Positions 11,398-63,165 of a stretch of DNA of 64,000 bases are shown here, piece by piece; position 1 is the first letter of the stretch; each line of letters begins with the position of its first letter. The translations under genes and the position numbers were made by a program. The stretch is from Macrostomum lignano (Eukaryota), in the NCBI GenBank assembly GCA_002269645.1, contig NIVC01001486.1, positions 266,747-330,746 of the forward strand, written 5' to 3'. The notes under the pieces were generated by a model. That model saw only the letters and a list, made by a program, of their open reading frames with translations. It was not told the origin of the DNA and ran no database searches.

Positions 11398-11595
11398 TAG
11401 GTTCTGCATAGGTCTGGGTACTAGTTCTGCATAGGTCTGGGTATTGTTCTGCATAGGCCTGGATACTGGTTCTGCATAGGTCTGGGTATTGGTTCTGCAT
11501 AGGCCTGGGTACTGGTTCTGCATAGGTCTGGGTACTGGTTCTGCATAGGCCTGGGTACTGGTACTGGTTCTGCATAGGTCTGGGTATTGGTTCTA
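11398..11595. repeat. 23-bp minisatellite (GGTTCTGCATAGGTCTGGGTACT)n, about 8 copies, related to the 18.6-22.2 kb array
   Basis: Shares the GGTTCT(G/A)CATAGGTCTGG core with the large array. Confidence 0.9.
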
Positions 11596-38183: not shown

Positions 38184-38799
38184 TTTCCTAGAAGGAAAAG
38201 CGTGTTAAAGCGCATTTTGGGTTCTCACGCTCACGCTTTTATATTCCGAAGCAATGTCGTTAATTGGACATGGATGGCCAATAGAAGCTTTCTGCTGATA
38301 TTTGGTTCTATTGTTGACAATGCTTTGTTCCCATCTGGATCCGTGATCCATTGGAATGGGAAAGGCTCTGGGATTCGTTGCCATAGTGATGCAATTCCGC
38401 AATAAAGAAATCAATTACTGGGTGCCCGAGAGGCTTGGTAAACAGTGCTGAATTAGAGGGTCCATGGCAGCAATCAAGCATACTCCTATATTAACAGCAC
38501 AATTAATTAATGGCATGCGTGTGGTTTCAGAACAAAAGCCATATGAACAGAAAAAGCTAGAACCTGAACGCCATTAAAGGCAGTAAACAAGAATCGCATC
38601 AGACTACTGGCATCAGATTTTTATAGTCTACTGAATACAAAAGAATTTATTGTCCCTATTTCTGATTAAACTGTTCTCGAATAAATTTCAGCACCACTTT
38701 TTCCATTTTTCTACCGAGAAAAGTAGTCTAAACTGTATCTAAATTATATTTTTGTAGATATGCCTGCGTTACAAAGATGTCGTCAGAAAGTGACTTAAA

Positions 38800-38913
38800 A
38801 CTACGTATCGTGCAGATTGTTGTCGATTTTTAGGCAGATTTGACGCAAAATACGCAAATTATACTACTATTTGAAAATGAAGTAAGTAGTATATGAAAAC
38901 GCTATCCTAAGCG
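38800..38913 (+). repeat. Left terminal inverted repeat (114 bp)
   Basis: Matches the reverse complement of 56921-57034 with about 3 mismatches. Looser inverted similarity extends to about 39130. Confidence 0.92.
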
Positions 38914-40149
38914 GGATATACATGGCAATATGTAGTCGTATATGTACATTAATCCCATGTACTGCATTAATCCCTATCTATCTCAAATTGTATATGTACA
39001 TGTCTACTTCTATGTCTATCCCAATTCTACATGTACATTGTCAACTTGTACAGTGCATACTTCTATATGTACACTTGCGCATTAATCTACTTCTATGACA
39101 ATTTCTATATGTACAGTGTATACATTAATCCCCAATCTTACACGACAGCCCCTGCTCTGCGTATTTGAATCGCCAACCCCCCAAGATTATATGTACAATT
39201 CCAACTCGAAACACTAATTGTTACGTGTACAGCGCAGTATATGCAGAGGTGGGTCGGTGCGCGCGCGACAGCTGTACAATCCGTTGCATGCGCGGAATAT
39301 TTACAAAAACGATACATCCAAATATACTAAATCTCCATTCTATACTATTTTCTGTGTTACAACCTATATATATTGGAATCACTATGCATATCGACCTCTA
39401 AAAGTAAGAATCATGGATGCACGGCACGCGATTTCTCTCTCTGAGACATATTTCCTTACACTTGAAATTGTACAATAACCTATAATACATTGCCTTTATA
39501 TTGAGTATGGGCCTGTACAAATCAAGAGATTAAATCAAGCCTGTACAAATCATATAGAGTTTGGGCCTGTACATGTTGAATCACACTTCAACTCTGCCCA
39601 TATTCAAAATCAACCCCAAGACTGTTCAAAAACAGCCACCCTCCAATGGTCAACAGATTCGTCTTCACAGTGCAGGCCCATATAGCAAATCGAATAGAAC
39701 CACTCGTCCCTGTTCTCCGACCTCCCTATTACTAACTGTCAAGGAATTCCGCCCATTTTCAGTGTACAGACAGATCTATCCACAGCACAGACCCTATATT
39801 AAACATTATTCAGCAAAACCCTCTTCTCCGATTACGTCATCCATGCCGCCCCCAGTTAGCAAGAAACCAACTGTTAATGCACATATGAACACCGCAAATC
39901 CGTGTCCACCAACCTCTACCTGCATTGACATAATACCCTGCTTTTGTCAATGTACACAATCTATGAATCAGTGTCTCCACCGCAATGCAATTCTGATATA
40001 CTTGATTCTAACACATTTGCATAGTGTCTCTTACCCTTGCGTTATACTAGAAGTATGCAATTCTACCTCTCCGCCACGCCTCTCCTGCCCTTATTTACTT
40101 CAAGCTTTCAGACTTGGTCCTGAGATGGTTTAATCTGTTCGAAGCAGGA

Positions 40150-41130
40150 ATGAATCATGCACTGACCTCTCCATATACAAAGTCAAGTTGGAATTTCAAA
40201 GAAGAAATTTGGTTATTTTGAAAGTTAAATGACTAGAAATGCGCATTTTTCATAAGAAAAATACAATTTTTCACAGTTTTTAACGATTTTAACGTTAAAA
40301 TGTAGACTTTATTGACCAAAAGCAGTAGTTTCATCACTAGAAACGATACTTTCAACAGCTAATTTGTCCAAATGTCGTTTTCAACTTGACCTTAGACAGA
40401 TTTGAAGCAAGAATGAATCCCACACAAACATCCACAAGCCAGCCCAGAATCAACCAAAGACATGGCTAGAAATGAGCATTTTTTTATAAGAAAATACAAA
40501 TTTTTCACAGTTTTTACGCATTTTTTACGTTAAAATGCAGACTTTATTGATCAAAATCAGTAATTCATCACTAAAAACCACAATTTTAGCACAAAATTAT
40601 CACAAATGCTACTTCTGGCCACTCTGGGACAGCTTTGAGCAGGAATTATAATCGCACACGGATTACCCGAGCCAGTCCAATTTCCACTAAAGCCATGGTT
40701 TTTTTAAAGCTAATTCATAGAATTTCTCATTCTTTCGTTTAATAAAGGCCAATTTTCACAGTTTTATTATTTTCTAACGTTAAAATGCGAAATGCGAAAT
40801 TATCAAACTTAGTAGTTTCATCCCAAAGGCCATAATTTCAACCGCTAATTTGTCCAAATGCTGATTTCAAAGTTGGCAAGAGACAGCTTTCGAGCAGGAA
40901 TGAGTCACACACTGATCTCCATATGCACACCCCTGCCCAAGTTGGAATTCCACCCAAGACATTTTCATTGAAAGCTAAATTACTAGAAATTGCACATTTT
41001 CGTTTCAAAAAAGGTCAATTTTCACAGTTTTTACTCTTTTTAACGTTAAAATGCGGACTTTATTGAACAAAATTAATCACTTCATCAGCAGAAACCATAA
41101 TTTTTACAACTTAATCATCACAAATGCTGC
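40150..41130. repeat. Four degenerate ~250-bp tandem units inside the element
   Basis: Anchor TTTTCACAGTTTT...ACGTTAAAATG recurs at about 40291, 40527, 40776 and 41042. Confidence 0.75.
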
Positions 41131-41698
41131 TTCATCATTCAAATAGGCATGTATATTGCCCAAGAAGAAGCTGGGGAAGTATTCTATAGACACAGTAAAA
41201 TTGGCGCTAAAAACACAGTCTGCTATTATACAGAATGATTTCAGTATCGATTGCTAAATCATGCCATTGATGCTATTTTAAACGTTATTCTCAGTTCTGA
41301 AGCTCCCAACAGCCTCTTTTAGATGCACTGAATCTGTGTTGTTGCACACACTACATTTTGAATCACCCTTCAATTCAACGATTCCCCACAATACATTCTA
41401 GCCATATTCCAAATTCAACCCAGGAGAATAATAATGTCGCAAATATGGAGAGAACAACACCTACCCCAGCCTCACCAAGGCAATTCTTTACTACCGCGTA
41501 AATGCCATAACTGACTCTCTGCTCAGATCCAATAAAATGCCGCATGGAAAAGGAATTGGCGGGGTATTTTTGACCCCCAACTTTCTATATCAAATGCGGA
41601 ACCGAGAGTACAATCGTACACTAATCTAGAAAATATAGACCCGGGAAGAAAATCACGCACACTTCTCGTGCCCCTACCCCATCCTCCCTCTCGCGGGG

Positions 41699-41706
41699 TA
41701 TATAAA
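41699..41706 (+). promoter_or_regulatory. TATA box (TATATAAA) upstream of the putative pPolB first exon
   Basis: Canonical TATA in a GC-rich context. The first downstream ATG is at 41925 (GAAATGG). Confidence 0.5.
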
Positions 41707-41924
41707 GCGGGTGAGAGCTGCTGCAGCCGCATCAGCAAAAGCAGCCAGCAGCAGCAGAAGCCACAACAGCAGAATCAACTGCTTCAACAGCATCAGCCTG
41801 CAACAGCGGCGACACAGCAGCAGCATCAGCACAGCAGCAGCAGCAACAAAAGCAACAACAGCAGCGCCAACTGCCTCAACAACATCACCAGCAGCATCAA
41901 CAACCATCTACCTTCCCCATCGAA

Positions 41925-42084
41925 ATGGCATCGAAGCGCTCTGCCGCGGAAGCGGCTATTTCAGCCTTGTGGGGGCATGCCGGCCCATCCAGGCAGCAGC
42001 AGCAACCACAGCAGCAGCAGCAGCAACCACAGCAGCAGCAGCATCAGCATCAGCCTCCGGCCGCAAAGAGGGGGCGACAGCTAG
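41925..42084 (+). CDS. Putative exon 1 of the pPolB gene (Gln-rich, basic NLS-like motifs), preceded by a CAG/CAA-rich leader
   Basis: MASKRSAAE...QQQQPQQQQQQPQQQQHQHQPPAAKRGRQL ends at CTAG|GTGAGT (phase 1), which is frame-compatible with the exon starting at 52147. Confidence 0.5.
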
Positions 42085-42649
42085 GTGAGTCTTGTTGCAA
42101 GTCTCTGTGTGTAAAACTATGCTTTTAATCTTTAGCATTTGCGAAATCTAAATTCAGAAAAATAGGGCTGTATAACTGCTTTTCAGCTTTAGCATTTGTG
42201 TGATTTGCAAACTTCACGCTTGTTGAAATATGGGCTTTCTTTGAAACCACAGCTTTCCATCTTTAACATTCGTTTTGGCTTAAAATTTCTGAAGTCAGGC
42301 CGTCCTCCTGCCATAGATATCACATTGAAGTAAAAGGGAAGAAACTGCTTTTGCTTTAGATTTATTTGGATTTCTCAATTCAGGCCTATTGAAATAACAG
42401 AGTTTCGGAGAATATCCGCAACAGCAGTATAGTTGGATAATACCTGTAGAGGATAGTCATAAAATTCCAGGGGCAGTATATGACTCATCCTTGAACTAGA
42501 GAGAGAAGAAGCAAAAAACAGCAATCCTGCGGCGCGAACGTGACTCAGCGGGCATGCAGGCTTTCTGGCAGTGATAAAATCAACCCCCGATTTTTTGGGC
42601 TCGGGGTGATGTATGATGTAATCACCGCTGCAAGCCTTAAGAGCCTTAA

Positions 42650-45600
42650 GAGCCTTAAGTTCACATGAAATCCACATTTATCCCCTTTCTCCCCACAGAG
42701 ATCCCCAAACGCTAAAGTGGTCGGGTTTTCGGCATAACGGGAGCCATTTGGCTCCAAATGAAGGGATTGGCGTAGAGAAATCGGGACCCAATGCTTCAGG
42801 CTCCATTCTAGAGCCTTAAGTTCACATGAAATCCACATTTATCCCCTTTCTCCCCACAGAGATCCCCAAACGCTAAAGTGGTCGGGTTTTCGGCATAACG
42901 GGAGCCATTTGGCTCCAAATGAAGGGATTGGCGTAGAGAAATCGGGACCCAATGCTTCAGGCTCCATTCTAGAGCCTTAAGTTCACATGAAATCCACATT
43001 TATCCCCTTTCTCCCCACAGAGATCCCCAAACGCTAAAGTGGTCGGGTTTTCGGCATAACGGGAGCCATTTGGCTCCAAATGAAGGGATTGGCGTAGAGA
43101 AATCGGGACCCAATGCTTCAGGCTCCATTCTAGAGCCTTAAGTTCACATGAAATCCCATTTATCCCCTTTCTCCCACAGAGATCCCCAAACGCTAAAGTG
43201 GTCGGGTTTTCGGCATAACGGGAGCCATTTGGCTCCAAATGAAGGGATTGGCGTAGAGAAATCGGGACCCAATGCTTCAGGCTCCATTCTAGAGCCTTAA
43301 GTTCACATGAAATCCACATTTATCCCCTTTCTCCCCACAGAGATCCCCAAACGCTAAAGTGGTCGGGTTTTCGGCATAACGGGAGCCATTTGGCTCCAAA
43401 TGAAGGGATTGGCGTAGAGAAATCGGGACCCAATGCTTCAGGCTCCATTCTAGAGCCTTAAGTTCACATGAAATCCACATTTATCCCCTTTCTCCCCACA
43501 GAGATCCCCAAACGCTAAAGTGGTCGGGTTTTCGGCATAACGGGAGCCATTTGGCTCCAAATGAAGGGATTGGCGTAGAGAAATCGGGACCCAATGCTTC
43601 AGGCTCCATTCTAGAGCCTTAAGTTCACATGAAATCCACATTTATCCCCTTTCTCCCCACAGAGATCCCCAAACGCTAAAGTGGTCGGGTTTTCGGCATA
43701 ACGGGAGCCATTTGGCTCCAAATGAAGGGATTGGCGTAGAGAAATCGGGACCCAATGCTTCAGGCTCCATTCTAGAGCCTTAAGTTCACATGAAATCCAC
43801 ATTTATCCCCTTTCTCCCCACAGAGATCCCCAAACGCTAAAGTGGTCGGGTTTTCGGCATAACGGGAGCCATTTGGCTCCAAATGAAGGGATTGGCGTAG
43901 AGAAATCGGGACCCAATGCTTCAGGCTCCATTCTAGAGCCTTAAGTTCACATGAAATCCACATTTATCCCCTTTCTCCCCACAGAGATCCCCAAACGCTA
44001 AAGTGGTCGGGTTTTCGGCATAACGGGAGCCATTTGGCTCCAAATGAAGGGATTGGCGTAGAGAAATCGGGACCCAATGCTTCAGGCTCCATTCTAGAGC
44101 CTTAAGTTCACATGAAATCCACATTTATCCCCTTTCTCCCCACAGAGATCCCCAAACGCTAAAGTGGTCGGGTTTTCGGCATAACGGGAGCCATTTGGCT
44201 CCAAATGAAGGGATTGGCGTAGAGAAATCGGGACCCAATGCTTCAGGCTCCATTCTAGAGCCTTAAGTTCACATGAAATCCACATTTATCCCCTTTCTCC
44301 CCACAGAGATCCCCAAACGCTAAAGTGGTCGGGTTTTCGGCATAACGGGAGCCATTTGGCTCCAAATGAAGGGATTGGCGTAGAGAAATCGGGACCCAAT
44401 GCTTCAGGCTCCATTCTAGAGCCTTAAGTTCACATGAAATCCCATTTATCCCCTTTCTCCCCACAGAGATCCCCAAACGCTAAAGTGGTCGGGTTTTCGG
44501 CATAACGGGAGCCATTTGGCTCCAAATGAAGGGATTGGCGTAGAGAAATCGGGACCCAATGCTTCAGGCTCCATTCTAGAGCCTTAAGTTCACATGAAAT
44601 CCACATTTATCCCCTTTCTCCCCACAGAGATCCCCAAACGCTAAAGTGGTCGGGTTTTCGGCATAACGGGAGCCATTTGGCTCCAAATGAAGGGATTGGC
44701 GTAGAGAAATCGGGACCCAATGCTTCAGGCTCCATTCTAGAGCCTTAAGTTCACATGAAATCCACATTTATCCCCTTTCTCCCCACAGAGATCCCCAAAC
44801 GCTAAAGTGGTCGGGTTTTCGGCATAACGGGAGCCATTTGGCTCCAAATGAAGGGATTGGCGTAGAGAAATCGGGACCCAATGCTTCAGGCTCCATTCTA
44901 GAGCCTTAAGTTCACATGAAATCCACATTTATCCCCTTTCTCCCCACAGAGATCCCCAAACGCTAAAGTGGTCGGGTTTTCGGCATAACGGGAGCCATTT
45001 GGCTCCAAATGAAGGGATTGGCGTAGAGAAATCGGGACCCAATGCTTCAGGCTCCATTCTAGAGCCTTAAGTTCACATGAAATCCACATTTATCCCCTTT
45101 CTCCCCACAGAGATCCCCAAACGCTAAAGTGGTCGGGTTTTCGGCATAACGGGAGCCATTTGGCTCCAAATGAAGGGATTGGCGTAGAGAAATCGGGACC
45201 CAATGCTTCAGGCTCCATTCTAGAGCCTTAAGTTCACATGAAATCCCATTTATCCCCTTTCTCCCCACAGAGATCCCCAAACGCTAAAGTGGTCGGGTTT
45301 TCGGCATAACGGGAGCCATTTGGCTCCAAATGAAGGGATTGGCGTAGAGAAATCGGGACCCAATGCTTCAGGCTCCATTCTAGAGCCTTAAGTTCACATG
45401 AAATCCACATTTATCCCCTTTCTCCCCACAGAGATCCCCAAACGCTAAAGTGGTCGGGTTTTCGGCATAACGGGAGCCATTTGGCTCCAAATGAAGGGAT
45501 TGGCGTAGAGAAATCGGGACCCAATGCTTCAGGCTCCATTCTAGAGCCTTAAGTTCACATGAAATCCACATTTATCCCCTTTCTCCCCACAGAGATCCCC

Positions 45601-48600
45601 AAACGCTAAAGTGGTCGGGTTTTCGGCATAACGGGAGCCATTTGGCTCCAAATGAAGGGATTGGCGTAGAGAAATCGGGACCCAATGCTTCAGGCTCCAT
45701 TCTAGAGCCTTAAGTTCACATGAAATCCCATTTATCCCCTTTCTCCCACAGAGATCCCCAAACGCTAAAGTGGTCGGGTTTTCGGCATAACGGGAGCCAT
45801 TTGGCTCCAAATGAAGGGATTGGCGTAGAGAAATCGGGACCCAATGCTTCAGGCTCCATTCTAGAGCCTTAAGTTCACATGAAATCCACATTTATCCCCT
45901 TTCTCCCCACAGAGATCCCCAAACGCTAAAGTGGTCGGGTTTTCGGCATAACGGGAGCCATTTGGCTCCAAATGAAGGGATTGGCGTAGAGAAATCGGGA
46001 CCCAATGCTTCAGGCTCCATTCTAGAGCCTTAAGTTCACATGAAATCCCATTTATCCCCTTTCTCCCCACAGAGATCCCCAAACGCTAAAGTGGTCGGGT
46101 TTTCGGCATAACGGGAGCCATTTGGCTCCAAATGAAGGGATTGGCGTAGAGAAATCGGGACCCAATGCTTCAGGCTCCATTCTAGAGCCTTAAGTTCACA
46201 TGAAATCCACATTTATCCCCTTTCTCCCCACAGAGATCCCCAAACGCTAAAGTGGTCGGGTTTTCGGCATAACGGGAGCCATTTGGCTCCAAATGAAGGG
46301 ATTGGCGTAGAGAAATCGGGACCCAATGCTTCAGGCTCCATTCTAGAGCCTTAAGTTCACATGAAATCCCATTTATCCCCTTTCTCCCCACAGAGATCCC
46401 CAAACGCTAAAGTGGTCGGGTTTTCGGCATAACGGGAGCCATTTGGCTCCAAATGAAGGGATTGGCGTAGAGAAATCGGGACCCAATGCTTCAGGCTCCA
46501 TTCTAGAGCCTTAAGTTCACATGAAATCCCATTTATCCCCTTTCTCCCACAGAGATCCCCAAACGCTAAAGTGGTCGGGTTTTCGGCATAACGGGAGCCA
46601 TTTGGCTCCAAATGAAGGGATTGGCGTAGAGAAATCGGGACCCAATGCTTCAGGCTCCATTCTAGAGCCTTAAGTTCACATGAAATCCACATTTATCCCC
46701 TTTCTCCCCACAGAGATCCCCAAACGCTAAAGTGGTCGGGTTTTCGGCATAACGGGAGCCATTTGGCTCCAAATGAAGGGATTGGCGTAGAGAAATCGGG
46801 ACCCAATGCTTCAGGCTCCATTCTAGAGCCTTAAGTTCACATGAAATCCACATTTATCCCCTTTCTCCCACAGAGATCCCCAAACGCTAAAGTGGTCGGG
46901 TTTTCGGCATAACGGGAGCCATTTGGCTCCAAATGAAGGGATTGGCGTAGAGAAATCGGGACCCAATGCTTCAGGCTCCATTCTAGAGCCTTAAGTTCAC
47001 ATGAAATCCACATTTATCCCCTTTCTCCCCACAGAGATCCCCAAACGCTAAAGTGGTCGGGTTTTCGGCATAACGGGAGCCATTTGGCTCCAAATGAAGG
47101 GATTGGCGTAGAGAAATCGGGACCCAATGCTTCAGGCTCCATTCTAGAGCCTTAAGTTCACATGAAATCCCATTTATCCCCTTTCTCCCCACAGAGATCC
47201 CCAAACGCTAAAGTGGTCGGGTTTTCGGCATAACGGGAGCCATTTGGCTCCAAATGAAGGGATTGGCGTAGAGAAATCGGGACCCAATGCTTCAGGCTCC
47301 ATTCTAGAGCCTTAAGTTCACATGAAATCCCATTTATCCCCTTTCTCCCACAGAGATCCCCAAACGCTAAAGTGGTCGGGTTTTCGGCATAACGGGAGCC
47401 ATTTGGCTCCAAATGAAGGGATTGGCGTAGAGAAATCGGGACCCAATGCTTCAGGCTCCATTCTAGAGCCTTAAGTTCACATGAAATCCACATTTATCCC
47501 CTTTCTCCCACAGAGATCCCCAAACGCTAAAGTGGTCGGGTTTTCGGCATAACGGGAGCCATTTGGCTCCAAATGAAGGGATTGGCGTAGAGAAATCGGG
47601 ACCCAATGCTTCAGGCTCCATTCTAGAGCCTTAAGTTCACATGAAATCCACATTTATCCCCTTTCTCCCCACAGAGATCCCCAAACGCTAAAGTGGTCGG
47701 GTTTTCGGCATAACGGGAGCCATTTGGCTCCAAATGAAGGGATTGGCGTAGAGAAATCGGGACCCAATGCTTCAGGCTCCATTCTAGAGCCTTAAGTTCA
47801 CATGAAATCCCATTTATCCCCTTTCTCCCACAGAGATCCCCAAACGCTAAAGTGGTCGGGTTTTCGGCATAACGGGAGCCATTTGGCTCCAAATGAAGGG
47901 ATTGGCGTAGAGAAATCGGGACCCAATGCTTCAGGCTCCATTCTAGAGCCTTAAGTTCACATGAAATCCACATTTATCCCCTTTCTCCCCACAGAGATCC
48001 CCAAACGCTAAAGTGGTCGGGTTTTCGGCATAACGGGAGCCATTTGGCTCCAAATGAAGGGATTGGCGTAGAGAAATCGGGACCCAATGCTTCAGGCTCC
48101 ATTCTAGAGCCTTAAGTTCACATGAAATCCCATTTATCCCCTTTCTCCCACAGAGATCCCCAAACGCTAAAGTGGTCGGGTTTTCGGCATAACGGGAGCC
48201 ATTTGGCTCCAAATGAAGGGATTGGCGTAGAGAAATCGGGACCCAATGCTTCAGGCTCCATTCTAGAGCCTTAAGTTCACATGAAATCCACATTTATCCC
48301 CTTTCTCCCCACAGAGATCCCCAAACGCTAAAGTGGTCGGGTTTTCGGCATAACGGGAGCCATTTGGCTCCAAATGAAGGGATTGGCGTAGAGAAATCGG
48401 GACCCAATGCTTCAGGCTCCATTCTAGAGCCTTAAGTTCACATGAAATCCCATTTATCCCCTTTCTCCCCACAGAGATCCCCAAACGCTAAAGTGGTCGG
48501 GTTTTCGGCATAACGGGAGCCATTTGGCTCCAAATGAAGGGATTGGCGTAGAGAAATCGGGACCCAATGCTTCAGGCTCCATTCTAGAGCCTTAAGTTCA

Positions 48601-51600
48601 CATGAAATCCACATTTATCCCCTTTCTCCCCACAGAGATCCCCAAACGCTAAAGTGGTCGGGTTTTCGGCATAACGGGAGCCATTTGGCTCCAAATGAAG
48701 GGATTGGCGTAGAGAAATCGGGACCCAATGCTTCAGGCTCCATTCTAGAGCCTTAAGTTCACATGAAATCCCATTTATCCCCTTTCTCCCACAGAGATCC
48801 CCAAACGCTAAAGTGGTCGGGTTTTCGGCATAACGGGAGCCATTTGGCTCCAAATGAAGGGATTGGCGTAGAGAAATCGGGACCCAATGCTTCAGGCTCC
48901 ATTCTAGAGCCTTAAGTTCACATGAAATCCACATTTATCCCCTTTCTCCCCACAGAGATCCCCAAACGCTAAAGTGGTCGGGTTTTCGGCATAACGGGAG
49001 CCATTTGGCTCCAAATGAAGGGATTGGCGTAGAGAAATCGGGACCCAATGCTTCAGGCTCCATTCTAGAGCCTTAAGTTCACATGAAATCCACATTTATC
49101 CCCTTTCTCCCCACAGAGATCCCCAAACGCTAAAGTGGTCGGGTTTTCGGCATAACGGGAGCCATTTGGCTCCAAATGAAGGGATTGGCGTAGAGAAATC
49201 GGGACCCAATGCTTCAGGCTCCATTCTAGAGCCTTAAGTTCACATGAAATCCACATTTATCCCCTTTCTCCCCACAGAGATCCCCAAACGCTAAAGTGGT
49301 CGGGTTTTCGGCATAACGGGAGCCATTTGGCTCCAAATGAAGGGATTGGCGTAGAGAAATCGGGACCCAATGCTTCAGGCTCCATTCTAGAGCCTTAAGT
49401 TCACATGAAATCCCATTTATCCCCTTTCTCCCCACAGAGATCCCCAAACGCTAAAGTGGTCGGGTTTTCGGCATAACGGGAGCCATTTGGCTCCAAATGA
49501 AGGGATTGGCGTAGAGAAATCGGGACCCAATGCTTCAGGCTCCATTCTAGAGCCTTAAGTTCACATGAAATCCACATTTATCCCCTTTCTCCCCACAGAG
49601 ATCCCCAAACGCTAAAGTGGTCGGGTTTTCGGCATAACGGGAGCCATTTGGCTCCAAATGAAGGGATTGGCGTAGAGAAATCGGGACCCAATGCTTCAGG
49701 CTCCATTCTAGAGCCTTAAGTTCACATGAAATCCACATTTATCCCCTTTCTCCCCACAGAGATCCCCAAACGCTAAAGTGGTCGGGTTTTCGGCATAACG
49801 GGAGCCATTTGGCTCCAAATGAAGGGATTGGCGTAGAGAAATCGGGACCCAATGCTTCAGGCTCCATTCTAGAGCCTTAAGTTCACATGAAATCCACATT
49901 TATCCCCTTTCTCCCCACAGAGATCCCCAAACGCTAAAGTGGTCGGGTTTTCGGCATAACGGGAGCCATTTGGCTCCAAATGAAGGGATTGGCGTAGAGA
50001 AATCGGGACCCAATGCTTCAGGCTCCATTCTAGAGCCTTAAGTTCACATGAAATCCACATTTATCCCCTTTCTCCCCACAGAGATCCCCAAACGCTAAAG
50101 TGGTCGGGTTTTCGGCATAACGGGAGCCATTTGGCTCCAAATGAAGGGATTGGCGTAGAGAAATCGGGACCCAATGCTTCAGGCTCCATTCTAGAGCCTT
50201 AAGTTCACATGAAATCCACATTTATCCCCTTTCTCCCCACAGAGATCCCCAAACGCTAAAGTGGTCGGGTTTTCGGCATAACGGGAGCCATTTGGCTCCA
50301 AATGAAGGGATTGGCGTAGAGAAATCGGGACCCAATGCTTCAGGCTCCATTCTAGAGCCTTAAGTTCACATGAAATCCACATTTATCCCCTTTCTCCCCA
50401 CAGAGATCCCCAAACGCTAAAGTGGTCGGGTTTTCGGCATAACGGGAGCCATTTGGCTCCAAATGAAGGGATTGGCGTAGAGAAATCGGGACCCAATGCT
50501 TCAGGCTCCATTCTAGAGCCTTAAGTTCACATGAAATCCACATTTATCCCCTTTCTCCCCACAGAGATCCCCAAACGCTAAAGTGGTCGGGTTTTCGGCA
50601 TAACGGGAGCCATTTGGCTCCAAATGAAGGGATTGGCGTAGAGAAATCGGGACCCAATGCTTCAGGCTCCATTCTAGAGCCTTAAGTTCACATGAAATCC
50701 ACATTTATCCCCTTTCTCCCCACAGAGATCCCCAAACGCTAAAGTGGTCGGGTTTTCGGCATAACGGGAGCCATTTGGCTCCAAATGAAGGGATTGGCGT
50801 AGAGAAATCGGGACCCAATGCTTCAGGCTCCATTCTAGAGCCTTAAGTTCACATGAAATCCACATTTATCCCCTTTCTCCCCACAGAGATCCCCAAACGC
50901 TAAAGTGGTCGGGTTTTCGGCATAACGGGAGCCATTTGGCTCCAAATGAAGGGATTGGCGTAGAGAAATCGGGACCCAATGCTTCAGGCTCCATTCTAGA
51001 GCCTTAAGTTCACATGAAATCCCATTTATCCCCTTTCTCCCACAGAGATCCCCAAACGCTAAAGTGGTCGGGTTTTCGGCATAACGGGAGCCATTTGGCT
51101 CCAAATGAAGGGATTGGCGTAGAGAAATCGGGACCCAATGCTTCAGGCTCCATTCTAGAGCCTTAAGTTCACATGAAATCCACATTTATCCCCTTTCTCC
51201 CCACAGAGATCCCCAAACGCTAAAGTGGTCGGGTTTTCGGCATAACGGGAGCCATTTGGCTCCAAATGAAGGGATTGGCGTAGAGAAATCGGGACCCAAT
51301 GCTTCAGGCTCCATTCTAGAGCCTTAAGTTCACATGAAATCCCATTTATCCCTTTCTCCCCACAGAGATCCCCAAACGCTAAAGTGGTCGGGTTTTCGGC
51401 ATAACGGGAGCCATTTGGCTCCAAATGAAGGGATTGGCGTAGAGAAATCGGGACCCAATGCTTCAGGCTCCATTCTAGAGCCTTAAGTTCACATGAAATC
51501 CACATTTATCCCCTTTCTCCCCACAGAGATCCCCAAACGCTAAAGTGGTCGGGTTTTCGGCATAACGGGAGCCATTTGGCTCCAAATGAAGGGATTGGCG

Positions 51601-52137
51601 TAGAGAAATCGGGACCCAATGCTTCAGGCTCCATTCTGGAGCCTTAAGTTCACATGAAATCCACATTTATCCCCTTTCTCCCCACAGAGATCCCCAAACG
51701 CTAAAGTGGTCGGGTTTTCGGCATAACGGGAGCCATTTGGCTCCAAATGAAGGGATTGGCGTAGAGAAATCGGGACCCAATGCTTCAGGCTCCATTCTAG
51801 AGCCTTAAGTTCACATGAAATCCCCATTTATCCCCTTTCTCCCCACAGAGATCCCCAAACGCTAAAGTGGTCGGGTTTTCGGCATAACGGGAGCCATTTG
51901 GCTCCAAATGAAGGGATTGGCGTAAAGAAATCGGGACCCAATGCTTCAGGCTCCATTCTAGAGCCTTAAGTTCACATGAAATCCCATTTATCCCCTTTCT
52001 CCCCACAGAGATCCCCAAACGCTAAAGTGGTCGGGTTTTCGGCATAACGGGAGCCATTTGGCTCCAAATGAAGGGATTGGCGTAAAGAAATCGGGACCCA
52101 ATGCTTCAGGCTCCATTCTGACTCTTAAGTTCATATG
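42650..52137. repeat. 161-bp satellite, about 59 near-identical tandem copies (~9.5 kb), inside the element
   Basis: ORF-track hits repeat every 161 bp. Variants are mainly ATCCACATTT/ATCCCATTT and CTCCCCAC/CTCCCAC. A triple AGCCTTAAG marks the left edge. Confidence 0.98.
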
Positions 52138-52146
52138 CCCTTTAAG

Positions 52147-55100
52147 GCAAAAGGGGTCGAATACGAGATAGTACGAGCGTATTCACAAATTTGAGCGATA
52201 TTCGCTCAACATTTGAGAATATAATTTCTGTGCTTTGCAGCGACCTGAATGCAGATGACTTCGTCGCATCTAAGCTGACAGCGGACAATATGATGCTCGC
52301 CATCAATGTCCCGCCGGTCTGCGCCGCCCGCTTCACTGCAGAGTTGATATTTAAACATATCAACAAGGTTCTGCAGTCGGACTCCAGTGTCTTGGGCAAC
52401 AACTTTAAATTGTTTTTACTCAAGGCCTGGGTCCCGCGGGGCGGCTGCGGCAGCCTAGATGCGGCGGAGCGCCACATCCAGGCACGCCATTCAATGGGCT
52501 ATAATTACGTTGTCATTGCCAACCGCGACAAGCGGTGCCTTATCCGGGCGCTGATTGTCGCCAAGGCATACGCCGATCTGCAGGCCAAGGCCATCACTAA
52601 GCGGGCTTGGCGGACTATCAAAGCCGACTCCTCACTGCAGACGAAGCTGACTGGGGAGCTTCAGATTGCTGCCAATCCGTATTCGGTGAGTAAAAATGTT
52701 CTTGCACATTTTAATTTGCATTTTTATTAATATACAAATGTTTTAGTCTTTATCAACCATTGCACAGGCCGGGCCTTTCTGGGTTGACGTGCTCCCTCAA
52801 CTGCTCGCCGCCATGAACGCTCAGTCACCCGGCCGGGATTTCGGCGTTCGTGTGTACAGTGCTGAGGGAGGCAACACGTGTGTGTATGCCCTGCCCGGCA
52901 ACACGGTGCTGAATCTGCACCTAATTGGCGAACACTTTAACGCGGTGTGCAAGGTACCGCCATTTTTCGGTGCTCGCCGCTATTGTGAAAGCTGCCAGCA
53001 GCCGTACGACTGCGTGTCTGGAGAACACAAGTGCGCCAACACCTGCCCTCAGTGTAAAGTGCCCGGCTCCAATTGCAAGAGCCTGCGGTGTGACTATAAG
53101 CGCTGCGCTGATTGTGGCCTCAAGTGCTACAATCAGCAGTGCTTTAACAATCACCGCCAAAAAAACCGAGCCGGCAGGTCTCGCTGCAGCTCCATACGCG
53201 TCTGCTCCAAATGCGGATATTTGGAGGAGATGAAAGCGGGCCAGAAGGAGCCGGAGCACAAGTGCGGGCATGTCAAGTGCCCACTGTGTAAACAGTACGA
53301 CGAGGCCGGCTCACATTTGTGTTTCGTCAAGGCTCCCAAAGTGAAAGCTTCGACTATGCCGTACGTGTTCTACGATACGGAAACGTACACGGACGAGGAG
53401 AAGCAGCATCACGTGCATCTGGTGACTGCCGTCACGTGCTGCGAGACCTGCTCCGGCCGGGCGTTTCCGCGCGAGACTTGCCGCCTCTGCAATGGCCTGC
53501 ATAGCGCCGCCAATTGTCTGACTGGCCGCGATCTGGGGGAGGAATTCTCCAATTGCGTCAGCCACTCAGACTGCGCCTGCCAAATGGCCGATTTTGTGGC
53601 TGTGGGCCCGGCCTCGCTGAATGCGTTTTTCGCCTGGCTGAGCACAGCTTTCCGTGGCGGCGCCATTGTTGTCGCGCACAATGCATCAGGCTATGATGCG
53701 TTTCTACTGCTTGGCGCTCTGCTCAACGGCCTGGCCAAGAAGCGGCCCCAAGTACTGTTCCAGGGTAGCCGGCTAATGAGCATGACGGTGGATAAATTGG
53801 TATTTAAAGATTCGTTAAACTTTATACCAATCCCGCTTGCGCAATTCCCCAAAGCGCTGGGGCTCGCTGACACAAAGCTGGCCAAGGGGACGTTTCCCAC
53901 GAGTTCAACAAGCCGGCTAATTGGAACTACGTGGGCCCCTACCCGGCTATTGAATATTATGGCGGCAAAGCAAACAATGACTACGACTCCATCTGTGCTT
54001 GGCTGGCCTCGCGACAGGGCGAGTTGTTCAACTTTAATCGGGAGTATCTCGATTATTGTTTGAGTGACACAGTCCTGCTTCGCGAGGGCTGCATCAAGTA
54101 CAGGGCAATAATTGGCGACATTTGCGACGGCCTGGAACCGTTTGTTCAGGCCAATACGATTGCCAGTTTGGCAATGGCCGTATTTACTACTAAATTCATG
54201 GAGCCCAACTCGGTCGGCGTGATTGCCCGGCAGGCCGACCAGCAGTCATTCAAGGCGCGCAAGTAACTGGCCTATTTGAATGCCACCGAATTTGGCGGGC
54301 GGCTGCGCACCTGCGACTCGACTGGCGGCGAGGCGGTCATTCTCGGCCGCAAGGTGGACGGCTTTGATGAGGCTAGCAACACTGTTTTGCAGTTTCTTGG
54401 TTGTTTCTACCATGGCTGCGAGCAGTGCATGCCCGATCAGGATGTCGTCCACCCGCTCTGAGCCACATTCGCCACGAAACCGAGTGGTTCACTCGCGAGT
54501 TGGAGCGGCATAATTACAGTGTTCGTACAATTTGGGAACATGAATACGACGCTGTATTGGCATCGCAGGCCGATTTTATCGCCGCAACTGCCCATCTGCG
54601 CGCTCCACTCAAGATGGAGGATGCGCTCTATGGCGGCCGCGTAGAGTGTTTTATCCCGCATGCTGTGGCCAGCGAGACTGAGACGCTCAAATATCGGGAT
54701 GTGGTGAGTAGTGATACTACTAATATAGTAGAATATTTTGTAAAAATACAGTTTATGAAAAATAATGCTTTATTTCAACTTGCAGGTCTCTCTGTACCCG
54801 ACGGTGCAGTCGAAAGACCCATACCCGATTGGCCACCCGGTGCAACATCCGACGCCGCAGACGCTCAACTCTGACGCGCTGGCCAGCTACTTTAATTGGC
54901 ATTGCCAAAGTGACTGTGCTACCGCCGTCGGATTTGCATATTCCGCTGCTGCCGTACAGGGTGCAAAAGAAGCTCTTTTTTGGGCTTTGCCGCACCTGTA
55001 TGGAGCAGCAGTGCGGTGGCGAGTGCTGCGACCACTCAGACGAGGAACGGGCGCTGACTGGCACCTGGGCAACGCCGGAGCTGCAAAAGGCCTTCCAGTT

Positions 55101-56175
55101 GGGCTACCGTCTGCAGGCTGTTCACGCGCTAGCCTACTGGACAGAGAAGCGGACCGGTCTATTCGGTGATTACGTGAATGCCTTCCTGAAGCTGAAGGCC
55201 GAATCGAGCGGCTCCCCCGGCATGTCGGATGAAGATAAGGCGGTCTATATTGCCGATTTCTTCGCCAAGGAGGGCGTCACGCTGGACAAGGTCGAACCCA
55301 ACCCAGGACTTCGCTTTGTAGCGAAAATCTTTTTGAATTCGTAAGTATTCATAAATTTTGTTTTTTAAATGATTTTCTTCTACTAACAGTAGCTTTTCTT
55401 TTCACTACACAGGCTCTGGGGCAAATTTTGTCAGCGTGACGACCTGACATCGACCGAGATTGTGTCCAGCTACGAGGACTGGCTCGCCCGGCTGACCGAC
55501 CCCAACCTCAAAGTCAAGGCCTGCGAACCGATTGGCAGCGAGTTTATGCTGCTAGAGTACCGGCACCGTTACTTTAATCAGCGGCCATTCAGGTACTCCA
55601 ATGTGCCAATCGGAGTCTTTACGACCACGCAGGCCCGGCTGCGCCTGTACGAGGCATTGGAGGGGCTCGGCGAACGGGCCATTTACTGCGACACTGACTC
55701 GTAAGTATTGCATTGGAAAAATTCTTTTAGAATTGAATAGTTAGCATGTGGAACTAATTATCTCGTTTTTCTCTCCCCCACACAGGGTCGTTTACCGGCA
55801 TTCCGAGGGCCAATGGGAGCCGCCCCATGGCACGAGCCTCGGAATGTGGACCGATGAGGTGCCCGCAGGCAGCCGGATGACCGACTTTGTAAGTGGGGGC
55901 CCAAGCTCTACACTTACATTGTCGAGGATGCGGCCGGTGTCCGCAGCCAAGTCCTGAAATGCAAGGGCATCCGCCTGACTCCGGAGATACGGGAGCGTAG
56001 CGATGACTTGCGCAACACCCTGCTACACGGCGGCTCTCTGCAGCTGCCGCAGTTTCAGTTCAGGCGCGACAAGGCGTCTTGTACCATACACACGATCAGT
56101 ATGGACAAGACGTTTCAGCGCGTGCTGACGAAACGCGTGTACGGGGCCTGCAGCAGGCCTTATGGCTATAAATAA
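52147..56175 (+). CDS. polB: Spliced protein-primed family-B DNA polymerase, exons 52147-52685, 52768-54703, 54786-55340, 55413-55700, 55786-56175; disrupted in this assembly by four 1-bp frameshifts and one stop
   Basis: ExoI YVFYDTET, ExoII AHNASGYD, FKDSLNF, ExoIII YCLSD, YGGRVE. After splicing: motif A DV|VSLYP, motif B KIFLNS|LWGKF, motif C YCDTDS|V. C-terminus KCKGI...KR...PYGYK*. Introns are GT-AG, 72-85 bp. Confidence 0.92.
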
Positions 56176-56920
56176 TGCTGACTGACAATTCAATGTACAT
56201 TTTGCATTATAAAATTAGTAAAATCTATTTGTTGTACATAATTTGCATATCAATGTACATAAAGCATTTTTGCATTGTAGCTCGTACTATTGCCAAATTT
56301 ATCAGCGTGAATCTATTTGTTGTACATAATTCATGTACATAAAGTATTTTTGTATTGTATGCGGTGAAATTGCCTATGTAATTACGAGTATCTATTGTAC
56401 ATATTTTGCGTGTCAGACCTGCTTAAAATCATTTATGAAGAGAAAAATATTGAAAAACAATGTAAAATTTTCCGTTTATTCTATTTGCTGGTAATGTACA
56501 TAAATTTTTTCCTGTAATATGCTACTGATTTATTGTAAATATATCTTCTTTGTAAATAGTTTATATACGATGTGAGCTGTACAATTAGTTGACTCATTTA
56601 GATGAGATTGTACACCAATTCTCACCTCTGCGAACAACTGTACATGTAGTAGGGTTTCGAGTTGTACATGTAATCTTGGTGATTCATACAGAGCGCGCCG
56701 GCCGTCTGGGGAAGACACTGTACATGTAGATTAATGTAGAAGTATGTACTGCGTACATATAGAATTGGGGATAGAACATGTACAATTTGGGATAGATAGG
56801 GATTAATGTACATGGGATTAATGTACATATCCATTTTGAGATAGATAGGGATTAATGCAGTACATGGATTAATGTACATATGCAAGTACATATAGAAATA
56901 TGCTATGTATACATATTTCA

Positions 56921-57034
56921 CGCTTAGAATAGCGTTTTCATATACTACTTACTTCATTTTCAAATAGTAGTATAATTTGCGTTTTTTGCGTCAAATCTGT
57001 CTAAAAATCGACAACAATCTGCACGATACGTAGT
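56921..57034 (-). repeat. Right terminal inverted repeat (114 bp)
   Basis: Reverse complement of 38800-38913, followed by the TSD CTTAAA. Confidence 0.92.
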
Positions 57035-57284
57035 CTTAAAACTACAAATTTTATTAATGATTTCCAGAACTGGCTTGTTACAGGCGGTCCAGGTGCTGAG
57101 TTAAGACGTTCAGTTAGACTTGCCATAAACAGTCAAAGATTAAATACAAATATTTTAAGTTCAGTTTTGCCGGTAAAAGTGTCACAACACGCTCAAAATC
57201 CCATTCAAGCAAGCATCAGTGTTTAATAAGTAAACACATTCGTGTCTTAAATCAGATAACAAGTGACAGTTGAAGGTTTTTAGA

Positions 57285-58070
57285 TGTTGTTGTGGGTTGA
57301 TGGCTTTGCCATAGACATTTTTGTTACGCGACTGCGTTGATGAATTGAACCATGCTATTGAGTTATGAAATAAATAATAGACGCGTCAGAGGTCAACAGA
57401 CCGCTAGACTGACAATTGCTTAAGACTAAAGCCAAAAGCACAACAGTGGCGTCGGCAAGCATAGGCTACGAAAATGCCTGGAAGTACGCCAGCATCGCCA
57501 ACTAAAGGAGTTGGTAAAACGGTTTCGAGCGACAAAGCACCACCGCTTGCGATCTCGTCGAAATCAGTCCAAGCGACAAAGTCGGCAACAGCGACAGCGC
57601 AGAACCCAAGCGCACAAGTATCGAGAGGACAGCAAGTTGACATCGAAAAACTCGATGAAAGTTCGAACTTCCAGAGGTGGTTGGACCGATTCACACTGTG
57701 CAGCGAACTCAACGGCTGGCAGGACGACACGAAAAATAAGCTGCTGCTGATTAAGCTCAGTACCAAGCTGTACGACGCATTGGCAGATCGAGCCGCTCCC
57801 AAGAAGCCGGGAGAAAAGAGCTTCGATGAACTGACCAAACTACTGGCCAGCATCCTGGAACCAAAGACGTTCGTCATGGCTGAGAGATTCAATTTCCAGC
57901 ATATCACTCGCACGGCATCAATGAGCATTCGTGAGTATGCACAGCAACTCTGCATGCAGGCAGACAAGTGTCAGTTTGGCCTATCCAGAGATGAGAGACT
58001 GAGAGAAAATTTAAACCTTTCAATCATTCGAAATCATGATCCTTGCCCCATCACCTTCATGCAACCTTGA
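57285..58070 (+). mobile_element. gag: Ty3/Gypsy relic: short 5' LTR (57285-57445), PBS and truncated gag (ORF 57474-58070)
   Basis: TGTTGT...ACAACA inverted termini with internal AATAAA, then GTGGCGTCGG (PBS-like). The ORF contains ERFNF..ITR...SIREYAQQL..QADKCQFG...DERLRE, typical of Gypsy Gag, and then breaks off. Confidence 0.75.
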
Positions 58071-58942
58071 CTGGCCGTGCCAATACTCATACCGAATAGA
58101 GCAGCATCACAACAGAGTCCGAAGTGACACGCCATAAGCCCACAGAAATCCGACGTCTGTCCTCATCAATAGGATGTCTGCAGCGTCAGTAGCTCCCGCA
58201 CCGCGGCTATACTGGATTGAAAAAACTTGAGAACGATCCAAGGACCAAGTTTTTCTTCGAACTATTGTTTTCTGAGATTGAATTCAATTTTTTTAATTCT
58301 GCCATCCACACTGCTTTTTGCTCCGGAAGTATTTGTGTCCGTTACCAGGAAATGAGCTTGCTGCATGCCCTCACAATGCATTTTGTTATCTTCCTCAGCA
58401 AGTACCTTTTTACAGGTAGAGTTCCGGAAGATTGCAGGCTGGAATACGTGAGCCCGATGTCTCCGGAGGTGCATCAGTAGCGTCAGCAGTTCCCAGGGAT
58501 GTGGAGACTAGGTACTGGATTGTTGACGATAAATCTGTGGTGAATTTGCATGCTCTATGCGATTATTTAACGTATAAAATGCACTGATTTACTACATCTA
58601 TCAGTAAGAAAATGTACATGCACATTGAGCACTAGCTTATTAGGTGAGAGCCAACCTCTCCTTTCCTCTCAACTCGACTTAATTTATTTGGCGAGCAAAA
58701 ATCGTCTTGACACGATTGAAGGGAACTTTCTTCTCCAAAAAAACTTCTTTTACGTAGATTCTATGCTCATAAAATTGTCAATCTTCTTCTGCATTGCAGG
58801 TATCCAAAAGTTAATTAGACCGAAACTCAAAATATTGTCCAACAGAATGTTACTTTTGCCTCTAGCTCTAGAACTTATTATTTTCAGATCGTTTTCATGC
58901 TGTTTGGCCTCGAAGCTGCTTGTCCGTCCTTACAAGACTCAA

Positions 58943-59654
58943 CTAGGTTTTGATGAACACAGCCCATCCGGGTCCGGTCAGGCTGGCTGGCGGGAAGGCG
59001 AACGGCAGCAGGCGGCAGGCGAGCAGCTGCTTGGAGAAGACGGCGCCGCTGCAGTTGGCTCTGGCGCTGCACTGGAGCAGGCAGTCCGCGTCGGACTGGC
59101 AGCGGCCGGCCAGGACGAGTCGACGGTAGAGGTCACCGTGATGTCCGAATTCTTCAGCACAGTGTATGCATTGTTGCCTGAAAGTTGTGTAATTTTATTA
59201 AGATTTTCTCTCAGTTGAAATTCTAAGAGGCAGCGTCGAGCTAACTCACTCGGGAAGGTCATAGCAAACACGGAGTTGATTGAGAAGCCGCCACAAATCT
59301 GCTCTGGGTTTCCCGTGCACTGCCTGTTGCACATGCTATCACTGAGCTGTCCGTGGAGTCCGTAGGAGCTGCCGCAGAAGCACTGCTTGCCGACCTGCAC
59401 GCCGAAGTAGGGAAAGCGGCCCAGAGAGCAGACGTTGCTGCAGAACTCGTGCGACATGTTGTTGAGGCTGTGCACTAGGTCGCCAACACCAATACTGTAC
59501 GGCCCCAGATTTTTTAACCCTTTCAGACCTGTCATATCTCTGTTCGAGTTATCACCGTCTCGATAACAACCAACGTAGGAGAAATGAGCCACCCTGCGGC
59601 TGCACAGGTCAGGAGGCCGCACAGCAACGCCGACTCTAACAGTGAGATTCTCAT
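58943..59654 (-). CDS. WSC-PAN copy H, join(58943..59177,59250..59654); two 1-bp deletions (~59596, ~59098)
   Basis: MRISLLESALLCGLLTCAA signal, WSC cysteines, conserved phase-1 intron, PAN-like exon ending GWAVFIKT*. Each exon is one base short of frame. Confidence 0.78.
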
Positions 59655-60328
59655 TCTAATTCAAGAATAGTTACGGGTTAAAGCTATCGAATCTCAACAT
59701 CCGGAGCTTGGAAGCAATTCTCTCACGAGCGTCATCCTTTTATCCTTTTCTGAGTACAGGCATTCAGATTTTATCCAATCAGACGGTTATGTAAGCTTTG
59801 AATTAGCCATGCTCGATTATTCACAGATACTAGCGACGGGTCATAGGAAGATTCAAACAGTTGCGAGCGTATCTAAAACTCCGACAGTGGCGTACTGCAA
59901 CTTCATTCCCGTAAACAACAATGAGTACTCGCAAACACTGGTTGAAATTCGCTACAAATAAAAACAAGCAGTCTCGTACAAGAACAAAACTGACCAAATT
60001 TCTCAACCCAATGAAGTGCAGCTACCATTCTGCAACTTTGTCATATACTCAGCAGCATTAAAAAGTCGCCACTCAATGCGCCAGTGAGCAATTTCTCTTG
60101 GACTATTCTGAAATAAAAGATACGAGAAAACTGATCGGGGTAGCTTTAATCCGTCCAACCCTCGCACACCCCCCCTCCACTTCATTCCTCAACTCAAGTC
60201 TGCCGCGGCGTAGCTGAGTTGCATCACTCGCAAAGGATTGAGAGACTTTACCTGCACTCTCAAAAGTGGCGACCACAGACTGGATCTTCTGTGATGGCAA
60301 CTTTTCGATGTTGGTGAGTATATAGTAC

Positions 60329-60405
60329 GTGTCCTTGAGCAAGACACTTATTTACTCTGCATTGCTTCGGTTCACCCAGCTGTAAAATGGGTGCCAGCAA
60401 TAGCT
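60329..60405 (+). mobile_element. Partial SINE (CORE-like segment)
   Basis: GTGTCCTTGAGCAAGACACTT...CACCCAGCTGTAAAATGGGTGCCAGC is shared with the 23401 and 63166 copies. Confidence 0.7.
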
Positions 60406-62784: not shown

Positions 62785-63165
62785 TGAGAAGAACTACAAG
62801 GCGACAGTTTAAGTCTTTGGAGTCTTAATGATAGTGCTAGTGCTATCTTAGTTCTTAGTCGAATCAGTCTTTTATCCTGTTGCGAGTGCAGGCAGTAACT
62901 AGATGTAGATTACTATCCAATCAGGTGGTTTCCATTATTGTCTACGACATTCTGGAAAATGCTAGAAAGCCTATTGCGATTGGCTACGCACTACTGAATG
63001 CTGATTACCTATGATCGCAGATAAAGTGATAAGTTAGAAATAGGTCTAAATTTGCTGCAGTTCAGATGCCGACCAGATTTCGAGTACAATAAATAATAAT
63101 TAAATAACTGATTACTACTGACTTAATGGGCAGATAAACAAACGACATCTGAAAGCAGCGTACGG

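What the first reader, a model, noticed from the sequence alone, without database searches (positions are those of the whole stretch)
42085..52146. A 10-kb putative first intron of the polymerase is filled by a homogeneous 161-bp satellite
Seen: about 59 almost identical units between the donor G|GTGAGT (42085) and the acceptor CCCTTTAAG|GC (52146). The two flanking exons join in frame (phase 1), and there is an in-frame TAA just before the acceptor. The very low divergence implies recent amplification. Inference: a TIR element is carrying, or seeded, a satellite that makes up half its length. Amplification may be linked to slippage or recombination during replication by its own strand-displacing polymerase.
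Basis: partly seen in the sequence, partly recalled or inferred. Interest (0 to 1): 0.72.

Follow-up and report, generated by a model that had tools for sequence, protein, structure and literature searches.

The report
Satellite breaking a flatworm Polinton polymerase
A block of 59 near-identical 161-base repeats really does fill half of a virus-like jumping element in a flatworm genome, but it sits where the start of a coding exon has been lost from an already broken DNA-polymerase gene, so it looks like damage by a passenger repeat rather than a giant working intron.

Summary
The array is real: 59 units of 161 bp, 42,649-52,137, making 52% of an 18,235-bp element with terminal inverted repeats and a 6-bp target duplication. 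The element holds one recognisable gene, a Polinton-type protein-primed polymerase whose named relatives are all from Macrostomum lignano. The '10-kb first intron' is not supported. The proposed acceptor (52,146) lies inside conserved codons, relatives continue upstream with about 30 residues that the window lacks, and the in-frame join works only because of a frame break 30 bases downstream. The gene has six further breaks. The unit belongs to a larger, diverged repeat family with other flanks. The array ends in a distinct 22-bp cap abutting TTAA, like a Kolobok/T2-MITE end; its other end is missing. Best reading: a tandem-repeat-carrying passenger inserted into exon 2, and a deletion removed its left end and the true acceptor (about 0.5; array native to intron 1, then deletion, 0.3). 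Nothing links amplification to the element's own polymerase. More unusual than the satellite: this polymerase family has four short spliceosomal introns, two seen spliced in probable RNA runs of two studies.

The parts
38794..38799 (.). Left 6-bp target-site duplication (CTTAAA)
   Evidence: of lengths 3-14 only 6 gives a direct repeat on both sides
38800..57034 (+). Polinton-like element, 18,235 bp, ends ACTACG...CGTAGT, inserted in a cluster of WSC-domain genes
38800..39001 (+). Left terminal inverted repeat (88.6% to the right one over 220 columns; 3 mismatches in the first 110 nt)
40138..41133 (.). Old, decayed tandem repeats of about 235-265 bp (about 70% alike), unrelated to the 161-mer
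   Evidence: no similarity to the unit
41925..42084 (+). Candidate first exon, Q-rich, ending in a phase-1 donor; its link to the polymerase gene is inferred, not shown
   Evidence: gene model P0007 uses this donor
42085..42632 (+). Non-coding stretch after the donor (probable 5' remnant of intron 1; may include passenger DNA)
   Evidence: no homologue peptide maps here
42633..42659 (.). Three copies of a 9-bp piece of the unit at the array's left edge (slippage or repair-type junction, inferred)
42649..52119 (.). 161-bp satellite array, 59 units; every unit holds a pyrimidine tract plus CAG (59 acceptor-like sites)
52120..52141 (.). Terminal cap, related to but different from the unit start; read inward from the right it begins AGGG
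52142..52145 (.).
52141..56175 (+). Remains of a protein-primed family-B polymerase gene (PF03175): start of exon 2 absent; frame breaks near 52,174-52,181, 53,871-53,898, 54,458, 54,886-54,893 and 55,897-55,903; stop at 54,264
52686..52767 (+). Short GT-AG intron (82 bp), inferred from homologue alignment
54704..54785 (+). Short GT-AG intron (82 bp), seen as a joint in two probable RNA runs
   Evidence: table 5 (X11, X18; not X6, X1)
55341..55412 (+). Short GT-AG intron (72 bp), inferred from homologue alignment
55701..55785 (+). Short GT-AG intron (85 bp), seen as a joint in two probable RNA runs
   Evidence: table 5 (X11, X18; not X6, X1)
56821..57034 (-). Right terminal inverted repeat
57035..57040 (.). 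Right 6-bp target-site duplication (CTTAAA)

Best explanation
The array is a passenger in a dead Polinton derivative, not the filling of a working intron. Steps: (1, shown) a Polinton-like element with an intron-bearing polymerase gene inserted here with a 6-bp duplication. (2, inferred) A non-autonomous DNA transposon of the TTAA-targeting Kolobok/T2-MITE type, carrying the 161-bp unit next to its end, inserted at the TTAA inside the F-K codons of exon 2; the 22-bp cap is its surviving end. (3, loss shown, mechanism inferred) A deletion removed its other end, about 30 codons of exon 2, the real acceptor and an unknown length of intron 1, leaving a 9-bp triplication at the new junction. (4, inferred) The unit expanded and was homogenised by host unequal crossing-over or gene conversion, as in other transposon-borne satellites; part of the homogeneity may come from assembly polishing. 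A transcript from the donor at 42,085 would meet 59 stronger acceptor-like sites first, and splicing to the first of them gives a stop within a few codons. That 42,085-52,146 is not a working intron: about 0.9. That the carrier is a TTAA-type element inserted in exon 2: about 0.5.
For: Of 170 proteins held, 13 contain the LPKF(K/R)A segment (11 of the 19 hits, plus P0023 and P0168); all 13 run on upstream with at least 10 conserved residues, across two subfamilies about 55-60% alike. P0001 residues 70-102 have no hit anywhere in the window at E<=1. Summed contig depth inside the unit is 13,535 (X6) and 6,789 (X1) against 16-27 for contigs that look single-locus, in 48 and 31 variant contigs; 10-11 contigs per DNA run join the second half of the unit to other upstream DNA, and contigs follow the array end to 52,127 (X18, 1 contig) or 52,143 (X11, 3 contigs, agreement 0.59) and then leave into other DNA. 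T2-MITEs and Kolobok are defined by a TTAA target and AGGRR or RR ends, and the T2-MITE Xmix carries the amplified internal repeat Xstir (PMC6004289, passages); the cap reads TTAA-AGGGC and matches one Kolobok end in that paper's Table 5 at 10 of 13 bases (my comparison by eye, best of 10 rows).
Against: No second terminus: the best match to the cap in 38,800-42,660 is 10 of 16 bases, so the deletion is needed as an extra event. The three X11 contigs leave the window after TT (52,143), not after TTAA, so they do not confirm a TTAA target. The fifth base of the end is C, not the purine of AGGRR. No empty site and no second full insertion could be examined (no genome held). Unit depth is only 19-30 times the gene depth, which does not exclude arrays inside many element copies; depth is no copy number by the tool's own warning, and the three subgenomes of this species (PMC10733133, passages) can multiply one array. 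Gene model P0004 has a unit-like peptide (8 of 9 residues; 0 of 200 shuffles above 6) directly before the conserved exon-2 residues, which fits the intron-1 rival as well.
Confidence: 0.5

Rival explanations
1. The array was first a resident of intron 1 in a subgroup of these elements (so the element family does carry and spread it); in this copy a later deletion from the array's end into exon 2 removed the acceptor. The cap is just a diverged last unit and the TTAA is chance or microhomology.
For: Unit-like peptide next to exon 2 in P0004, a copy about 94% identical to the window's; unit-to-gene depth ratio of 19-30; needs no lost terminus; donor at 42,085 is canonical and used by P0007.
Against: Many diverged unit variants with other upstream DNA point to a dispersed family; the P0004 peptide looks diverged beyond its 9-residue core and a gene model can borrow an exon from any nearby repeat; the cap ends exactly at a TTAA with an AGGG end.
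Confidence: 0.3
2. The carrier is a Helentron-type non-autonomous element (HINE), which inserts at TT without duplication and often holds a central array of 140-180-bp units.
For: HINEs carry such arrays and prefer TT sites (PMC7492417, passages); X11 contigs leave the window after TT; the left side needs no inverted terminus.
Against: No sub-terminal inverted repeat pair, microsatellite or significant hairpin at either end (z -1.6 to 0.0); insertion alone does not explain the missing exon-2 codons.
Confidence: 0.08
3. The layout is an assembly artefact: the array is mis-sized or joins two places that are not adjacent, which would explain the missing exon start.
For: Recurrent 1-bp losses in C-rich runs in 19 of 59 units, co-occurring (Fisher P 8e-5) but not clustered, look like long-read consensus error with uneven polishing; at two of the gene's frame breaks (53,895, 55,896) all X1 contig depth differs from the window; this genome is known to be hard to assemble and one assembly has chimeric scaffolds (PMC5730564, PMC10733133, passages).
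Against: Matching 6-bp duplication and inverted repeats on the two sides, and the same WSC gene cluster on both flanks; gene model P0007 links the left flank, exon 1 and the polymerase; the cap-polymerase junction word and the variant base of the last units are present in DNA contigs.
Confidence: 0.07
4. One reading: a functional 10-kb first intron spliced at 42,085/52,146, with the satellite amplified by the element's own strand-displacing polymerase.
For: Canonical donor, phase-1 join on paper, very low unit divergence; the family's other introns are spliced.
Against: Acceptor inside conserved codons; join in frame only through a frame break; about 30 conserved residues missing; six further breaks in the gene; 59 stronger acceptor-like sites upstream.
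Confidence: 0.04

Closest known systems
Polintons/Mavericks of animals (10.1101/2023.08.22.554363; PMC8097293)
   Same: Protein-primed family-B polymerase, terminal inverted repeats of about 200 bp, 6-bp target duplication; distant relatives of this polymerase sit beside integrase, packaging ATPase or capsid genes (L001, L007).
   Different: No integrase, ATPase, protease or capsid gene in this copy; 8.7 kb without the array; ends ACTACG...CGTAGT instead of (AG)3 or (AGT)2; four or five spliceosomal introns in the polymerase, where intact vertebrate Mavericks are intronless and L001's polymerase is one 1,250-aa frame.
Xenopus T2-MITE Xmix with its internal satellite Xstir; Kolobok superfamily (PMC6004289)
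   Same: Tandem array next to an end that reads TTAA-AGGG; high-copy, diverged family.
   Different: Only one end is present; fifth base C; unit 161 bp; no transposase seen; target duplication not shown.
Transposon-borne satellite arrays of invertebrates: HINE/Helentron arrays of Crassostrea gigas (PMC7492417), MITE-derived satellites (PMC12628747)
   Same: Dispersed arrays of 140-180-bp units with a defined flank.
   Different: HINE substructures not found here; array longer and more uniform.

Membership tests
Polinton/Maverick | [quoted passage not shown] | tested here: met
   PF03175 weakly on window pieces, 4.6e-39 on relative P0002; the profile A2 gives one PDB hit, DNA polymerase 1xhx (that this is phi29 polymerase is recalled)
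Polinton/Maverick | Terminal inverted repeats of 100-1500 bp | tested here: met
   220 columns at 88.6%
Polinton/Maverick | 5-8 bp (usually 6 bp) target-site duplication | tested here: met
   CTTAAA on both sides
Polinton/Maverick | Retroviral-type integrase gene | tested here: not met
   No Pfam family in six frames of 38,800-41,700 or in the ORFs scanned; other copies could not be read
Polinton/Maverick | ATPase, protease, major and minor capsid genes | tested here: not met
   so filed as a Polinton-derived, non-autonomous copy, not as a full member
Polinton/Maverick | AG-type end motifs, (AG)3 or (AGT)2 (vertebrate elements) | tested here: not met
   Ends read ACTACG on both sides (motifs)
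Polinton/Maverick | Intronless genes (intact vertebrate elements) | tested here: not met
   Four short GT-AG introns, two seen as joints in probable RNA runs
Spliceosomal intron 42,085-52,146 | Acceptor at the edge of conserved coding sequence, frame kept | tested here: not met
Spliceosomal intron 42,085-52,146 | Junction seen in RNA | tested here: inconclusive
   Only 51,985-57,300 was laid, on contigs, with rows cut
Kolobok / T2-MITE | TTAA target beside the end | tested here: inconclusive
   TTAA at 52,142-52,145 on the one end present; X11 contigs leave after TT
Kolobok / T2-MITE | RR end (AGGRR in T2-MITEs) | tested here: inconclusive
   AGGGC: RR met, 4 of 5 for AGGRR
Kolobok / T2-MITE | Two inverted termini with duplicated TTAA | tested here: not met
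   No left terminus in 38,800-42,660; so not filed as a member, only as 'works like'
Kolobok / T2-MITE | Dispersed copies with the same ends and empty sites | not testable with these tools
   No genome held
HINE/Helentron | Sub-terminal inverted repeats, 5' microsatellite, 3' palindrome | tested here: not met

The most novel reading that the evidence does not exclude
Macrostomum holds a family of compact, intron-bearing 'mini-Polintons' that keep only a spliced, expressed polymerase between non-canonical ACTACG ends, are integrated in trans with 6-bp duplications, have spawned many more polymerase-less copies sharing the ends, and routinely carry and spread the 161-bp satellite in intron 1, making a self-synthesising element a satellite vector.
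Probability: 0.1. Interest if true: 0.62.

Novelty: new variant of a known kind. Interest (0 to 1): 0.3.

Why it matters
The satellite-in-a-transposon part is a known pattern and here marks a dead copy. What is worth a follow-up is the host: a Polinton-type polymerase family split by host-style introns, with splicing seen in probable RNA runs. Such genes are described as intronless in intact vertebrate Mavericks, so this lineage appears to have lived long as a nuclear, spliced transposon rather than a virus. If the family also spreads the satellite, it would give a direct test of whether self-synthesising elements disperse satellite DNA.

Tried and rejected
Unit as an amplified intron-end plus exon-2 start (my first idea): rejected; the best tblastn likeness to the missing peptide has E 0.13-1.5 and 27-38% identity, while element copies are 90% or more alike. 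Inverted, decayed unit copies in 42,085-42,630 as a lost left arm: 22 of 200 shuffles score as well. Other unit copies in the window outside the array: none by blastn or nhmmer. Unit folding: z -0.61. Unit translation (one 72-aa frame) against the protein database: 0 hits among 4 candidates, weak evidence. Exon-1 peptide search: only P0007, E 0.14. Cap pattern in metagenome contigs: 0 matches. No run on record as RNA was listed as holder; X11 and X18 are RNA by the tool's guess. A notebook idea that P0004 is in the same subfamily as the window's copy was not borne out (93.9%, like P0001). PC4-like and other upstream frames seen in P0005 and P0009 have no match in the window. The 2015 PNAS genome paper was not held. 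Earlier-finding look-ups by sequence, place and words gave nothing on this array.

Full report
Observation. Tandem Repeats Finder gives period 161, 59.1 copies, 99% matches at 42,649-52,137. Cut at a fixed anchor, 38 of 58 complete units are identical; the other differences are 27 single-base losses at three C-rich places and three substitutions in units 56 and 58. The array is far beyond chance and makes up 52% of the element.

The host element. Self-comparison finds inverted repeats at 38,795-39,001 and 56,821-57,039 (88.6%). The element runs 38,800-57,034 with a 6-bp duplication, the only length from 3 to 14 that matches on both sides. Both flanks belong to one cluster of WSC-domain genes. 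The only recognisable gene is a protein-primed family-B polymerase. All 19 hits to its N-terminal piece are named Macrostomum lignano polymerases, 51-86% identical by BLASTP. A whole-library search gave 1,622 hits, 12 at E 1e-30 or better, most of the rest near 30% identity. Two distant contigs tested lie beside integrase and packaging ATPase (L001) or a weak capsid match (L007). The left arm has no Pfam match in six frames. So this is a Polinton-derived copy lacking the other core genes. It is broken: frame breaks near 52,174-52,181, 53,871-53,898, 54,458, 54,886-54,893 and 55,897-55,903 and a stop at 54,264. Two of these (53,895, 55,896) are not shared by any X1 contig depth and may be assembly errors.

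Why 52,146 is not the acceptor. Positions 52,141-52,173 encode FKAKGVEYEIV, 11 of 11 identical to P0001, and the AG lies in the K-A codons. Of 170 proteins held, 13 include this segment, and all 13 continue upstream with at least 10 conserved residues; 12 of them with about 20 or more. The other 8 of the 19 named hits start later or skip the segment. P0001 residues 70-102 have no match anywhere in the window. The donor at 42,085 may well be real: gene model P0007, which also matches the left flank at 93-100%, uses it but splices to a site near 52,254. That is a prediction, not a transcript.

What the satellite is. Four runs were laid on 51,985-57,300 as contigs. Summed depth inside the unit is 13,535 (X6) and 6,789 (X1), against 16-27 for contigs that look single-locus; taken naively that is 280-700 units at 90% identity or more, against about 12-31 polymerase copies. 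The tool warns that depth is no copy number, and sister subgenomes could multiply this one array. The qualitative signs are firmer: 48 and 31 variant contigs at one position, a 526-bp contig matching over only 127 bases with 12 differences, and 10-11 contigs per DNA run that attach the second half of the unit to different upstream DNA. The family is therefore larger and more diverged than this array. The array does not end mid-unit: it ends in a 22-bp cap that resembles the unit start but differs from it and abuts TTAA; read inward it begins AGGGC. Kolobok elements and Xenopus T2-MITEs have TTAA targets and RR or AGGRR ends, and one of them carries an amplified internal repeat (PMC6004289, passages). 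One X18 contig and three X11 contigs follow the array end and then leave into other DNA. Against this reading: the X11 contigs leave after TT rather than TTAA, and no left terminus exists in the window.

The main rival. Gene model P0004 has a unit-like peptide (8 of 9; 0 of 200 shuffles above 6) right before the conserved exon-2 residues, and P0008 begins with a 6-of-9 match. No genome was held, so I could not decide.

Age. The low divergence fits recent expansion or conversion. But the short C-runs fall in 19 of 59 units, co-occur (9 units have both; Fisher P 8e-5) and do not cluster along the array, and substitutions survive only at the edge; uneven polishing of a long-read consensus would look the same (inference). 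The variant base of the last two units is seen in DNA contigs, so the edge variants are real. Nothing ties the expansion to the element's polymerase: this copy cannot make it, and intact copies acting in trans were not testable.

The more unusual feature. The polymerase gene has four short GT-AG introns (82, 82, 72, 85 bp). Two of the four appear as joints in X11 and X18, from two studies, and not in X6 or X1 (RNA status is the tool's guess, and the contigs come from family members at 90% identity or more, not necessarily this copy). Intact vertebrate Mavericks are intronless (PMC8097293, passages). Searches for a description of this family found nothing relevant: Macrostomum lignano with Maverick, 1 unrelated listing; with Polinton, 1 listing on Tc1/mariner, not opened; Polinton, introns, PolB, flatworm, 0; one search listed 9 papers, one of them read. 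The library lacks most subscription papers and Repbase. Introners inside dinoflagellate Polinton-like viruses are published (PMC12166617, passages), and unchecked notes of this scan report intron-bearing Polintons in three other genomes, so the trait is not unique.

[quoted passage not shown] Simple and tandem repeats make up 15% of one M. lignano assembly, and this window has several other arrays, so a satellite here is unremarkable.

Verdict. Array confirmed; intron not supported; own-polymerase amplification unsupported. Best reading: passenger repeat element plus deletion in a dead Polinton derivative (0.5), then intron-1 resident plus deletion (0.3). Interest 0.3, carried mostly by the intron-bearing polymerase family.

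Noticed in passing
window 52,686-55,785: Four short spliceosomal introns in a Polinton-type polymerase; two are seen spliced in probable RNA runs of two studies.
   Followed up: partly
window 56,791-57,034: Contig depth in the terminal repeat (13,028 in X6 and 2,368 in X1 at 56,963) is about 10-18 times that of the polymerase gene, hinting at many polymerase-less copies that share the ends.
   Followed up: no
window 38,794-38,805 and 57,029-57,040: Element ends read ACTACG rather than the AG-type motifs of vertebrate Mavericks; the 6-bp duplication contains TTAA, so a TTAA-target parsing with one terminal mismatch is a less economical alternative.
   Followed up: partly
proteins P0005, P0009: Gene models of other copies include a PC4-like domain (PF02229, E 2e-4, below cut-off) and another frame upstream of the polymerase; neither is in the window, so longer family members probably exist.
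   Followed up: partly
proteins P0010-P0021, P0023, P0024: A second polymerase subfamily, about 48-64% identical to the window's; P0020 is fused in its gene model with ADAM metalloprotease domains, suggesting insertion into such a gene.
   Followed up: no
window 7,300-38,200 and 58,900-62,800: Tandem cluster of at least nine short WSC-domain gene copies (about 70-90% alike in DNA), interrupted by the element.
   Followed up: no
window 57,465-58,070: Gag-like frame (DUF7083 above cut-off; weak Retrotrans_gag), probably a retrotransposon remnant next to the element's right end.
   Followed up: no
window 18,645-22,249 and 11,400-11,594: A 23-bp array of 158 copies (93% matches) with a related shorter array 7 kb away.
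   Followed up: no
window 54,267-54,455: A DG-F...F.GCFYHGC stretch inside the polymerase resembles the VSR-type nuclease insert of some Polinton polymerases (motif recalled; no Pfam match).
   Followed up: partly
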